Shown in pieces: positions 17,671 to 18,825 of a stretch of DNA of 23,837 nucleotides. A program made the translations under genes and the position numbers. Numbering within the stretch: position 1 is the stretch's first letter; the number at the start of each line of letters is the position of its first letter. The notes below the pieces were generated by a model that worked only from the letters and a program-made list of their open reading frames with translations, was not told the origin of the DNA and made no database searches. Source of the stretch: a virus. Taxonomy: Duplodnaviria; Heunggongvirae; Uroviricota; Caudoviricetes. The stretch lies in IMG/VR virus record IMGVR_UViG_2534681835_000037, positions 1 to 23,837 of that record. One strand, given 5' to 3'.

Positions 17671-17700
17671 CTGCCTGAAATATACGATATCAATTTTTTC

Positions 17701-17729
17701 TTGACAGCCTGTTTCCCAAAACATAATAT
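17701..17729 (+). promoter_or_regulatory. Strong sigma70-type promoter (TTGACA-17 bp-TAATAT) flanked by ATCAA-N7-TTGA palindromes
   Basis: Consensus -35 TTGACA at 17701-17706, 17-bp spacer, -10 TAATAT at 17724-17729. Palindrome ATCAATTATAACTTGAT at 17736-17752 sits over the predicted start site; ATCAATTTTTTCTTGAC at 17689-17705 overlaps the -35. Confidence 0.55.
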
Positions 17730-17782
17730 CGCACCATCAATTATAACTTGATTTGATTCAATTTAAAATTGTTGGCGGATAT

Positions 17783-18331
17783 ATGAAGACACTAAAAGCA
17801 ACTCCAGAAACAACTAATTTTATCAACTGCGGCTGTGTTACGCTTAAGGGCTTAGAACTTGATTCCTTTGCATTAAATATTGCAAATTTGCTAAGTGCTG
17901 TACGCACATTCCATCTTCTGGATTGTGCTCGCTCAAAGGAACTGGGCATTGAGGTAATGGAATTTATCCATGAATATGCTCTATCTGCTGCTTCTCCTGC
18001 ACAACAAAAACAATCCTTCCCTGAAAGCTGGCTGGTTAACCTTCGCACCCAACGCGAAGCCTGCGGCTTAACAACCGCCGAACTCGCCAGGCTGCTCGAT
18101 CTCGATGAAGAAATTATCATCCAGTGGGAGAGCGGAGAGTATGAACCAACTATCAGTATGCTTATCCCACTGGCAAATATTCTTGGCTGCGATCCGATGT
18201 GCCTGTTAACTGGTGAGGTTACTCCTCCGGAGCAACCAAAAAGTGAGGAGCAGCAACACCATGACGCATCTCAACAAGTTTGCCCCTTATCTCGCGAAGC
18301 TCTTCTGCGGAAGAACCAATACCAATGGTGA
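17783..18331 (+). CDS. XRE-family HTH domain protein with an uncharacterised N-terminal domain
   Basis: ATG at 17783 (the ORF track start at 17753 is TTG); HTH segment LTTAELARLLDLDEEIIIQWESGEYEPTISMLIPLANILG; first gene downstream of the promoter above. Confidence 0.55.
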   Translation: MKTLKATPETTNFINCGCVTLKGLELDSFALNIANLLSAVRTFHLLDCARSKELGIEVMEFIHEYALSAASPAQQKQSFPESWLVNLRTQREACGLTTAELARLLDLDEEIIIQWESGEYEPTISMLIPLANILGCDPMCLLTGEVTPPEQPKSEEQQHHDASQQVCPLSREALLRKNQYQW

Positions 18332-18459
18332 CATAATCGCCGCTTCGCCCTTCAAGGTACATGCGAACATTTTTATCAATCATTGCGGAAACAGTCTCAA
18401 TATGAAAACACTTCTGAGACTCGCTATATAGCAGAACATATAAGTCAGCTGAGGAAGCC

Positions 18460-18825
18460 ATGAAAAAGTTCGAAAACATAACTGTTCTCCATGTTGATGA
18501 CTTTGATTATACAAACCCGGAACTTCTCCCGGAGGTTGTAAAGGCAATAGATGTTGCCGATATAGTGATTAGAGAAAAGAGAATTGTCAAAAACAGGCTC
18601 GCATGCACTTCAGGAGCAATGACAGAAACAACCTCACAGCAAGATAATTACGAAGGCATTTGTCTGGAGCCTGATTCATTTGCGGTAAATGTTTATCATT
18701 TATTGCATGCAACACAGGTATTACATATGTCCAGTAATCACGAAACGAAAACACTCGGCAGCGAAATTCTGAGTTTTGCATGTGAGTATACAAAAGCTGC
18801 TGCCGAAAAAGAATTAGCGCAATAA
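18460..18825 (+). CDS. Hypothetical protein (121 aa)
   Basis: GAGGAAG RBS 6 nt upstream of ATG; no recognisable family. Confidence 0.5.
   Translation: MKKFENITVLHVDDFDYTNPELLPEVVKAIDVADIVIREKRIVKNRLACTSGAMTETTSQQDNYEGICLEPDSFAVNVYHLLHATQVLHMSSNHETKTLGSEILSFACEYTKAAAEKELAQ

What the first reader, a model, noticed from the sequence alone, without database searches (positions are those of the whole stretch)
17689..18825. Strong promoter with ATCAA-N7-TTGA palindromes driving an XRE-HTH protein and a 121-aa gene in the rexAB position
Directly after the repressor terminator is a near-consensus sigma70 promoter (TTGACA-17-TAATAT). Two palindromes flank it, ATCAATTATAACTTGAT over the start site and ATCAATTTTTTCTTGAC over the -35, which is how repressor operators are arranged. 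The ATCAAG element also recurs in the cI/cro intergenic region, so this may be the pL/OL analogue; otherwise it is an autonomously regulated moron. The genes it drives occupy the immunity-region slot where lambda carries rexAB and other phages carry exclusion genes.
Basis: partly seen in the sequence, partly recalled or inferred. Interest (0 to 1): 0.6.

Follow-up and report, generated by a model that had tools for sequence, protein, structure and literature searches.

The report
Prophage early-left promoter and repressor operators

Summary
TTGACA-17-TAATAT (17701-17729) follows the cI terminator, and two 17-bp palindromes lie over the -35 (17689-17705) and the start site (17736-17752). A weaker third site lies at 17757-17773.

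The palindromes fit RTCAAK-N5-MTTGAY. Four of the five best matches in the 23.8-kb window lie in the two spacers flanking cI.

Comparison settles whose sites they are. In 8 immunity types the spacer after the repressor gene carries that phage's own OR repeats, while the downstream regulator keeps a nearly invariant HTH. In three other genera with the same cI type, both operators are perfect at the same 47-bp spacing, yet no XRE gene follows.

So this is pL/OL, bound by CI and Cro. It is not an autoregulated moron, and the genes sit in the N slot, not the rexAB slot.

- The XRE protein is a helical hairpin plus a P22 c2-like HTH.
- The 121-aa protein carries a paralogous hairpin (43% identity).
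- A conserved 86-aa gene on the opposite strand overlaps both genes.

Gene functions remain unknown. The control region is a new member of a known kind, and interest is modest.

The parts
16523..16813 (-). cro-like gene (96 aa), the first gene of the early-right operon
   Evidence: Pfam YdaS_toxin at 1.4e-12, with weaker P22_Cro and HTH_3 hits. PhiR49_2 annotates it as Cro.
16814..16946 (.). OR region with three operator sites: 16822-16838 (10/12), 16852-16868 (11/12) and 16901-16917 (11/12). It also holds a candidate pRM, GTTACA-16-TAAAAT at 16875-16902.
   Evidence: The three sites sit at the same positions in six cI-type-1 loci from four genera, and the -10 TAAAAT is invariant.
16947..17636 (+). 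CI-like repressor (229 aa): N-terminal HTH plus a C-terminal S24 self-cleaving domain
   Evidence: Pfam Peptidase_S24 at 4e-17 and HTH_3 at 5e-8. The C-terminal domain resembles UmuD in the PDB sequence search. The motifs GDSM and KR are visible in the translation.
17648..17672 (+). Intrinsic terminator ending the cI transcript
   Evidence: A 7-bp stem with 5 G-C pairs, followed by a T8 run. It is conserved in most type-1 loci.
17689..17705 (.). OL operator over the -35 hexamer, ATCAATTTTTTCTTGAC (12/12 to RTCAAK-N5-MTTGAY)
   Evidence: In 40 type-1 haplotypes both half-sites are kept except for single-haplotype changes, and only PPyecE differs in the central bases. It is 12/12 in three other genera.
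17701..17729 (+). pL-equivalent sigma70 promoter, TTGACA-17-TAATAT, with a predicted start near 17736
   Evidence: The -35 is invariant and the -10 is kept as TAATAT or TAACAT in type-1 E. coli loci, while the spacer between them varies. Distant genera keep TTGAC and TA---T with the same 17-nt spacing.
17736..17752 (.). OL operator over the transcription start, ATCAATTATAACTTGAT (12/12)
   Evidence: PPyecE has the perfect 6-5-6 form ATCAATTATATATTGAT. Three other genera have ATCAAGTTTAACTTGAT, 47 bp from the first operator, as here.
17757..17773 (.). Probable third, weaker OL operator, TTCAATTTAAAATTGTT (10/12), whose start lies 21 bp after the start of the previous one, inside the 5' leader
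   Evidence: Its core is conserved in nearly all type-1 E. coli haplotypes while the 3-4 nt linker before it varies. It is 11/12 in phi467, and it is not conserved in the three distant genera.
17783..18331 (+). First early-left gene: a 182-aa two-domain regulator. The helical hairpin is aa 23-69 (17849-17989) and the XRE HTH is aa 81-143 (18023-18211). The tail, aa 145-182, is unconstrained and overlaps the opposite-strand gene.
   Evidence: Pfam HTH_3 at 3e-10 and phrog_4836/4739. The AF2 model gives the hairpin pLDDT of about 85 and a disordered tail. The HTH fold is closest to P22 c2, C.AhdI and 434 Cro. In the + frame the tail shows 7 synonymous against 40 non-synonymous variant alleles. 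PGAP calls the same CDS.
18219..18479 (-). Conserved 86-aa gene on the opposite strand, convergent with the regulator gene and divergent from the 121-aa gene; function unknown
   Evidence: phrog_6104 at 1.4e-49. Variation falls mainly on third codon positions (20, 14, 37). The ORF is kept at 86 aa in ASU11, where the DNA has diverged. Homologs at 63-78% identity occur in Salmonella and Citrobacter with the same overlaps. A GGAG Shine-Dalgarno sequence lies 7 nt before ATG 18479 and is conserved. PGAP does not annotate it.
18460..18825 (+). 121-aa protein (phiP27 L08 family): a small beta-alpha-beta-beta N domain (aa 9-45), a disordered linker, and a helical hairpin (aa 71-120, 18670-18819) paralogous to the regulator's hairpin
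   Evidence: phrog_5451 at 1.7e-83, plus cross-hits to phrog_4587 and phrog_4836. BLASTP against the regulator N domain gives 43% identity over 47 aa, E 2e-10. The N half is conserved as an ORF down to 44% identity. The internal Met54 that PGAP uses as the start is lost in some relatives.

Best explanation
Coordinates 17689-17773 are the leftward early promoter-operator region, the lambda pL/OL equivalent, of a phiP27-like lambdoid prophage of E. coli.

Proposed mechanism. The CI-like S24 repressor (16947-17636), and by analogy the Cro-like protein, recognise 17-bp operators with the consensus RTCAAK-N5-MTTGAY. Three copies lie in OR and two or three in OL. In OL they cover the -35 hexamer, the transcription start and the early leader. 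Repressor bound there in a lysogen should therefore block RNA polymerase. After SOS-induced self-cleavage of CI, the promoter would fire and transcribe the + strand early-left operon towards xis and int.

What the promoter drives. The first gene is a two-domain protein with an N-terminal helical hairpin (probably an oligomerisation module) and a P22 c2-like HTH. Its DNA target is something other than these palindromes. Further downstream lies a 121-aa protein with a paralogous hairpin. An 86-aa gene on the opposite strand lies between them and overlaps both. It is likely to have its own promoter and to collide with, or be antisense to, pL transcription.

What is shown: the sequence elements, their enrichment, their conservation, and their co-variation with the repressor type. 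What is inferred: binding by CI and Cro, repression in the lysogen, the transcription start, and all protein functions.
For: 1. All elements are at the stated coordinates.

2. Four of the five best operator matches in 23.8 kb lie in the two spacers flanking cI, against 0.03 expected.

3. In 40 type-1 haplotypes the conserved blocks are exactly the three operators and the two promoter hexamers. The spacer and the linkers vary.

4. In phi467 and PPyecE, which are about 80% identical overall, the half-sites are kept while the operator centres change. PPyecE has a perfect 6-5-6 palindrome.

5. In Pseudocitrobacter, Citrobacter youngae and an unnamed enterobacterium, cI is 74-79% identical. Both OL operators are 12/12 at the same 47-bp spacing, and the three OR sites sit at the same positions. 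Flanking DNA has diverged, and the first downstream gene is not an XRE regulator.

6. Conversely, in 8 different immunity types the regulator keeps a nearly invariant HTH, yet each repressor-to-regulator spacer carries the repeats of that phage's own OR together with a TTGACA-like promoter.

7. In all 85 related loci where the upstream side could be read, the regulator gene lies directly after the repressor gene, in the same orientation.

8. Every annotated gene from here to xis and int is on the + strand, and no + strand terminator was predicted between 17730 and 19300.
Against: - No binding or expression data exist for this phage; literature searches found nothing.
- The two strong OL operators are 47 bp apart, about 4.5 helical turns. 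This differs from lambda's 24-bp spacing and does not obviously favour adjacent cooperative binding.
- The consensus was partly derived from the OL sites themselves.
- pR could not be placed with confidence in OR.
- Promoter-like matches at the tool's threshold are no more frequent here than in shuffled sequence.
Confidence: 0.87

Rival explanations
1. Autonomous moron. The promoter belongs to a self-contained cassette, and the palindromes are autoregulatory operators of the XRE protein itself, as with an Aca regulator on an acr promoter. Expression would then be independent of CI.
For: A strong promoter with flanking inverted repeats next to a small HTH gene is the typical layout of autoregulated cassettes. 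The regulator's hairpin domain and the free-standing hairpin proteins vary between phages while the HTH stays constant, which resembles Acr-Aca loci.
Against: The same HTH, with an identical recognition region, sits behind 8 different operator sets. The same operators and promoter occur in three genera with no XRE gene behind them. The motif also occurs three times in OR next to cI and cro. No motif is shared by the spacers of the different immunity types.
Confidence: 0.04
2. Rex-like exclusion genes. The XRE and 121-aa genes are expressed in the lysogen from this promoter and protect it against other phages, as rexAB does in lambda.
For: The genes lie next to cI in the immunity region. The proteins have no known function.
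Against: The genes lie after the cI terminator and behind operators that cover the -35 and +1 positions, so they are expected to be off in a lysogen. Lambda rexAB lies upstream of OL/pL and is read from pRM. PADLOC gave only generic HTH hits. The only gene here placed to be expressed while pL is repressed is the opposite-strand 86-aa gene.
Confidence: 0.05
3. SinR/SinI-like pair, concerning gene function rather than the promoter. The 121-aa protein, and the 66-68-aa hairpin-only relatives, bind the regulator's hairpin domain and titrate it away from DNA. This would give the early-left operon a built-in regulator and antagonist.
For: The two window proteins share a hairpin at 43% identity, E 2e-10. 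Both hairpins are confidently predicted as two-helix units of the kind that pair into four-helix bundles. The genes are neighbours, and hairpin-only proteins of 66-68 aa exist.
Against: There is no cognate pairing. Nearly the same 121-aa protein follows regulators with four different hairpin types, and phi467 carries small proteins of other types than its regulator. The domain order is the reverse of SinR. No complex model could be run.
Confidence: 0.15
4. CII/CIII-like lysogeny establishment, as the PHROG label 'CII-like regulator' suggests. The early HTH protein would activate repressor synthesis after infection, and the hairpin paralogs would protect it from proteolysis as decoys.
For: No cII homolog follows cro in the right operon. 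The regulator is made early. phrog_4836 carries the label 'CII-like regulator'.
Against: There is no Pfam Phage_CII match. The invariant HTH has no conserved target near the variable cro/cI regions. Prophages in three genera with the same cI type lack the regulator, so it is not an obligatory part of this immunity system.
Confidence: 0.1

Closest known systems
Lambda OL/pL, and the corresponding P22 and 434 early-left control regions
   Same: It lies immediately on the far side of the repressor gene and reads in the same direction as cI. It has a strong sigma70 promoter. It has two or three partially symmetric 17-bp operators with the same consensus as the three OR operators, and they overlap the core promoter. 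It drives the early-left operon towards xis and int. The repressor is an HTH plus S24 protein.
   Different: The operator sequence is new (RTCAAK-N5-MTTGAY). The operators sit at -35, +1 and +22 with 47- and 21-bp spacing, rather than three sites 24 bp apart. There is no rexAB between cI and the promoter. There is no N gene, and no boxA was found near the promoter. The first gene is an HTH regulator.
Lambda rexAB slot
   Same: It lies in the immunity region, adjacent to cI and on the same strand.
   Different: rexAB is upstream of OL/pL and is co-transcribed with cI in the lysogen. Here the genes are downstream of the cI terminator and of the operator-covered promoter.
SinR/SinI of Bacillus subtilis
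   Same: An XRE-HTH regulator with a helical oligomerisation domain, plus a neighbouring small protein paralogous to that domain.
   Different: The domain order is reversed, with the hairpin N-terminal. There is no cognate pairing across phages. The interaction is untested. There is no sequence relationship beyond the generic HTH.
Acr-Aca loci and fused Acr-HTH proteins such as AcrIIA1
   Same: A constant HTH is joined to, or neighbours, variable small proteins at the start of an early operon with a strong promoter.
   Different: The inverted repeats at this promoter follow the repressor type, not the HTH. No anti-defence activity is known.
phiP27 genes L10, L09 and L08, and the PHROG families 4836/4739, 6104 and 5451/4587
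   Same: These are direct homologs, and the window is 99.6% identical to phage PhiR49_2. The regulator and the 121-aa gene keep the same order.
   Different: All are annotated as unknown function. The phiP27 L10 protein has a different hairpin type. The phiP27 L09 gene is not the 86-aa gene, only the first 30 aa of which survive in phiP27.

Membership tests
Lambdoid OL/pL early-left control region | Lies just beyond the repressor gene and is transcribed away from the immunity region in the same direction as cI | tested here: met
   The cI stop is at 17636, the terminator at 17648-17664 and the promoter at 17701-17729, all on the + strand. The layout is the same in all 85 related loci where the upstream side could be read.
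Lambdoid OL/pL early-left control region | Several operators with the same consensus as the OR operators | tested here: met
   Sites matching at least 11/12 lie at 16852 and 16901 (OR) and at 17689 and 17736 (OL). Sites matching 10/12 lie at 16822 and 17757. The expectation was 0.03. OR and OL share type-specific repeats, clearly in six of the 8 immunity types and weakly in L089 and L091.
Lambdoid OL/pL early-left control region | Operators overlap the core promoter, so that bound repressor excludes RNA polymerase | tested here: met
   Site 17689-17705 overlaps the -35 hexamer at 17701-17706. Site 17736-17752 begins at the predicted +1.
Lambdoid OL/pL early-left control region | Operators co-vary with the repressor, not with the downstream genes | tested here: met
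   Three genera have the same cI type and the same operators but different downstream genes. Eight immunity types have the same regulator HTH but different operators.
Lambdoid OL/pL early-left control region | Repressor and Cro bind the sites, and the promoter is silent in the lysogen and active after induction | not testable with these tools
   This needs EMSA or footprinting, reporter fusions, or lysogen RNA-seq.
Lambdoid OL/pL early-left control region | N gene and nutL directly downstream (lambda, P22 and 21 subtype only) | tested here: not met
   The first gene is an XRE HTH protein. No boxA-like CGCTCTTTA lies near the promoter. This prophage carries a Q-family antiterminator. The feature defines the N-dependent subtype, not OL/pL as such.
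Lambda rexAB-type lysogen-expressed exclusion locus | Lies between cI and OL/pL and is co-transcribed with cI from pRM | tested here: not met
   A terminator and the operator-covered promoter separate cI from the genes.
Lambda rexAB-type lysogen-expressed exclusion locus | Homology to RexA or RexB, or to a known defence protein | tested here: not met
   Pfam, NCBIfam and PADLOC gave only generic HTH hits for the regulator, and nothing significant for the 121-aa and 86-aa proteins.
SinR/SinI-type regulator-antagonist pair | A small protein paralogous to the regulator's oligomerisation domain, encoded next to it | tested here: met
   43% identity over 47 aa, E 2e-10. Both regions are predicted as helical hairpins.
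SinR/SinI-type regulator-antagonist pair | The antagonist forms a heteromer with the regulator and blocks DNA binding | not testable with these tools
   The structure-prediction quota is for single chains only. The lack of cognate pairing across phages argues weakly against it.
Aca-type autoregulator of an early anti-defence operon | The HTH protein binds inverted repeats in its own promoter | tested here: not met
   The invariant HTH is found behind 8 unrelated operator sets, and the spacers share no motif. This is comparative evidence, not a binding assay.
Lambda CII family | Sequence membership (Pfam Phage_CII) and a position after cro | tested here: not met
   There is no Phage_CII hit. 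The gene lies on the other side of cI. The PHROG label 'CII-like regulator' is only an annotation.

The most novel reading that the evidence does not exclude
The helical-hairpin module would be a family of early-left effector or interaction domains. It occurs fused to a constant HTH in the first pL gene, fused to a small beta-alpha domain in the 121-aa protein, and free as 66-68-aa proteins. In E. coli one hairpin type goes with each immunity type.

Under this reading, either the free hairpins titrate the early regulator of the same or of competing prophages (a SinI-like or dominant-negative mechanism), or the hairpins are host-takeover or anti-defence modules carried on an Aca-like HTH. The opposite-strand 86-aa gene would be the lysogen-expressed partner whose transcription is antisense to the regulator mRNA.
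Probability: 0.15. Interest if true: 0.6.

Novelty: new member of a known kind. Interest (0 to 1): 0.3.

Why it matters
The control region adds one more immunity specificity to the lambdoid repertoire, with the operator consensus RTCAAK-N5-MTTGAY. The sites are defined well enough to design EMSA probes. They could also help predict cross-immunity among the many E. coli prophages of this group, which includes Stx2-converting phages.

The larger open question is what this group's early-left operon starts with in place of N. It begins with a hairpin-HTH regulator, an overlapping opposite-strand gene and hairpin paralogs. The cassette is conserved in E. coli, Salmonella and Citrobacter prophages, and nobody has characterised it. 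That part is worth a bench test but is not, on present evidence, a new kind of system.

Tried and rejected
1. Target of the regulator's invariant HTH. I compared 11-mers across 10 immunity-diverse loci within ±3.5 kb and 12-mers across four complete genomes, PhiR49_2, phiP27, ASU11 and phi467. Only coding motifs were shared (the HTH itself and the Roi/ORF6N C-terminus), plus a block between Q and the methylase gene. No candidate operator emerged.

3. Profile search of the hairpin domain against 1.8 billion representatives. The HTH columns were retained in the profile, so the result was dominated by XRE proteins. It showed little beyond the fact that the hairpin-plus-HTH architecture is common.

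4. Rfam found nothing in 17600-19300. NCBIfam and PADLOC gave only generic HTH hits.

5. Literature searches for phiP27 regulators, the protein accession, early-left HTH genes and PhiR49 found nothing useful.

6. PGAP's short 68-aa start (18619) for the 121-aa gene was considered and rejected. The N half is conserved as protein down to 44% identity, and Met54 is lost in some relatives. However, codon-position statistics for the N half are flat, so constraint on it is weak.

7. I looked for a functional link between hairpin type and cI type. The match is one-to-one in 8 E. coli types. But three genera with the same cI type have no such regulator. Simple linkage inside the non-homologous immunity block, bounded by the conserved HTH sequence, is therefore the sufficient explanation.

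8. pR could not be placed with confidence in OR.
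Full report
**What the window is.** The region is the immunity region of a lambdoid E. coli prophage. Over 16500-19300 it is 100% identical to the chromosome of E. coli O111:H8 strain 8E and 99.6% identical to phage PhiR49_2. Parts of it are shared with phiP27, phi467, ASU11 and a set of Stx-converting phages.

The layout, taken from ORFs, family scans and two public annotations, is:
- Roi/Rha-like gene, 15819-16526 (-)
- cro-like gene, 16523-16813 (-)
- 133-bp spacer
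- CI-like HTH plus S24 repressor, 16947-17636 (+)
- terminator, then the promoter of the finding
- a run of + strand genes ending in xis and int

**Check of the observation.**
- a terminator with stem 17648-17664 and a T run
- TTGACA at 17701-17706, a 17-nt spacer, and TAATAT at 17724-17729
- ATCAATTTTTTCTTGAC at 17689 and ATCAATTATAACTTGAT at 17736
- three ATCAAG copies in the cro/cI spacer

A consensus promoter match alone means little here, because 7 sites were found against 6.9 expected in shuffles. The operator pattern does mean something. With the consensus RTCAAK-N5-MTTGAY, only 5 sites in 23.8 kb reach 11 of 12. Four of them lie in the 279 bp flanking cI: 16852, 16901, 17689 and 17736. 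Two further 10/12 sites lie at 16822 and 17757. The expectation for sequence of that composition is 0.03, and this was never reached in 2000 simulations. The consensus came from the OL sites, so the OR sites are the independent part of the test.

**Whose sites are they?** Two complementary comparisons answer this.

First, I collected 85 related loci through the regulator protein and four more immunity types through distant regulator homologs. Wherever the upstream side could be read, the regulator gene follows a repressor gene directly. There are 8 repressor types. The regulator's HTH is nearly invariant across them. Yet each repressor-to-regulator spacer carries a TTGACA-like promoter overlapped by repeats that match that phage's own cro/cI spacer and not those of the other types. 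The sharing is clear in six of the eight types and weak in L089 and L091.

Second, I searched one genome per species with the CI protein. This found three loci, in Pseudocitrobacter faecalis, Citrobacter youngae and an unnamed enterobacterium, with 74-79% identical repressors. In all three:
- both OL operators are perfect (ATCAAGTTTAACTTGAC and ATCAAGTTTAACTTGAT) and 47 bp apart, as in the window
- three OR sites sit at the same positions
- the surrounding DNA has diverged
- the first gene behind the promoter is not an XRE regulator

The sites therefore travel with the repressor, not with the downstream gene.

Within the window's own immunity type, 40 spacer haplotypes show that the conserved blocks are the operators and the two promoter hexamers. 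The -35/-10 spacer and the inter-operator linkers vary. That footprint also reveals the third block, at 17757-17773.

**Conclusion on the control region.** This is the pL/OL equivalent. In a lysogen, repressor on the -35 and +1 sites should keep it shut. After CI self-cleavage it should fire. The Ser and Lys motifs and a Cys-Gly candidate cleavage site are visible in the translation, and the C-terminal domain matches UmuD. These last steps are inference from the lambda paradigm, and no binding data exist.

The 47-bp spacing of the two strong sites differs from lambda and is unexplained.

rexAB sits between cI and pL and is expressed with cI. These genes are behind the terminator and the operators, in the slot that N occupies in lambda. 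There is no N-like gene and no boxA near the promoter.

**What the promoter drives.** The first gene (17783-18331, 182 aa) has an XRE HTH at aa 87-138. The AlphaFold model shows:
- a disordered N-terminus
- a two-helix hairpin at aa 23-69, with pLDDT of about 85
- a five-helix HTH at aa 81-143, closest to P22 c2, C.AhdI and 434 Cro
- a disordered tail

The tail is not under protein-level constraint in the + frame, with 7 synonymous against 40 non-synonymous variant alleles. It is absent or different in phiP27, phi467 and ASU11.

The same DNA read on the other strand is a real gene. ORF 18219-18479 (86 aa) matches phrog_6104 at 1e-49 and shows third-position bias. It keeps its length and 76% identity in ASU11, where the DNA has diverged. 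It has 63-78% identical homologs in Salmonella and Citrobacter prophages. In those prophages the whole arrangement is kept: the gene overlaps the regulator's 3' end by about 100 nt and the 121-aa gene's 5' end by 20 nt. PGAP does not annotate it.

Two candidate promoters for this gene lie inside the 121-aa gene:
- TTGACA-17-CACTAT on the - strand at 18590-18562
- TATAAT on the - strand at 18511-18506

The first coincides with the conserved IVKNR and ADIVI codons, so its conservation cannot be attributed to promoter function.

**The 121-aa protein.** It has a small beta-alpha-beta-beta N domain, a disordered linker, and a C-terminal helical hairpin with pLDDT above 90. That hairpin is 43% identical over 47 residues to the regulator's hairpin (cross-hits).

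The long form is real:
- the N half is conserved as protein down to 44% identity
- the internal Met that PGAP uses as the start is lost in some relatives

Hairpin-only proteins of 66-68 aa also exist.

Hairpin types differ between phages and match repressor types one-to-one in E. coli. The mosaic joint falls exactly at the hairpin/HTH border, near 18041. However, the three distant genera with the same repressor lack the regulator. Nearly the same 121-aa protein also follows regulators of four hairpin types. Linkage inside the non-homologous immunity block explains the one-to-one match. A strictly cognate regulator-antagonist pair is not supported.

**Function of the proteins.** No library gives one. 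Pfam, NCBIfam and PADLOC see only the HTH. The PHROG families are of unknown function apart from the label 'CII-like regulator'. Fold searches return generic helical hairpins. I found no conserved non-coding motif that could be the target of the invariant HTH.

My ranking for the proteins is as follows:
- Most likely (about 0.4): a shared oligomerisation hairpin used independently by an accessory early regulator and by a second early protein.
- SinR/SinI-like titration: about 0.15.
- A CII/CIII-like role: about 0.1.
- Host-takeover or anti-defence modules on an Aca-like HTH: included in the novel case.

**Verdict.** The reading as a pL/OL analogue is right, and the moron and rexAB readings are not. 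The control region is a new member of a well-known kind. The early-left cassette it drives is uncharacterised and widespread, which gives the finding modest rather than high interest.

Noticed in passing
window 15468-15653 (-): Rfam finds a C4 antisense RNA (15468-15555, 75 bits) and isrK (15577-15653, 62 bits). Both lie inside the 5' part of the ORF 14862-15710 that PGAP calls a Rha family regulatory protein. This looks like a P1/P7 immI-type c4/ant antirepressor control module in the early-right operon, so the annotated ORF start is probably too far upstream.
   Followed up: partly
window 22552-23837 (+): The integrase gene carries a 1-nt deletion relative to the otherwise identical prophage of O111:H8 strain 8E (13338 against 13339 aligned bases, a single gap). 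This splits it into ORFs 22552-22932 and 22965-23837. It is either a frameshifted integrase or a sequencing error in a homopolymer run.
   Followed up: partly
window 19020-19208 (+): The 62-aa phrog_340 gene starts with ATG CAT CAG in relatives, but the window reads ATA CAT CAG. The longest canonical ORF is therefore only 49 aa, starting at TTG 19059. PGAP still annotates the 62-codon form.
   Followed up: no
window ~18041; loci L003-L086: The mosaic recombination joint between immunity cassettes falls exactly at the border between the regulator's hairpin domain and its HTH domain. The HTH coding sequence acts as the conserved flank of the immunity block.
   Followed up: yes
L098 3351-4500, L099 3338-4032, L100 3327-3746: In Pseudocitrobacter, Citrobacter youngae and an unnamed enterobacterium, the same cI type and operators are followed by 101-139-aa helical proteins instead of the XRE regulator (one to three per locus). 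Parts of these proteins resemble the small protein phi467_n2 and one of the regulator hairpin types. My hairpin HMM did not detect them.
   Followed up: partly
L005 3669-4397, L006 2698-3411 and many P-ids: The commonest E. coli form of the regulator is about 230 aa with two HTH domains in tandem, followed directly by a 66-aa hairpin protein. In the window's form, the second HTH is replaced by the opposite-strand 86-aa gene plus the N half of the 121-aa protein.
   Followed up: partly
L097 3671-3758 and 4173-4250 (Citrobacter freundii): A different, short repressor (137 aa, no S24 domain) is flanked by TCAAG...CTTGA palindromes such as TTCAAGATATCTTGA. The half-site is similar to the window's, but the spacing differs.
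   Followed up: no
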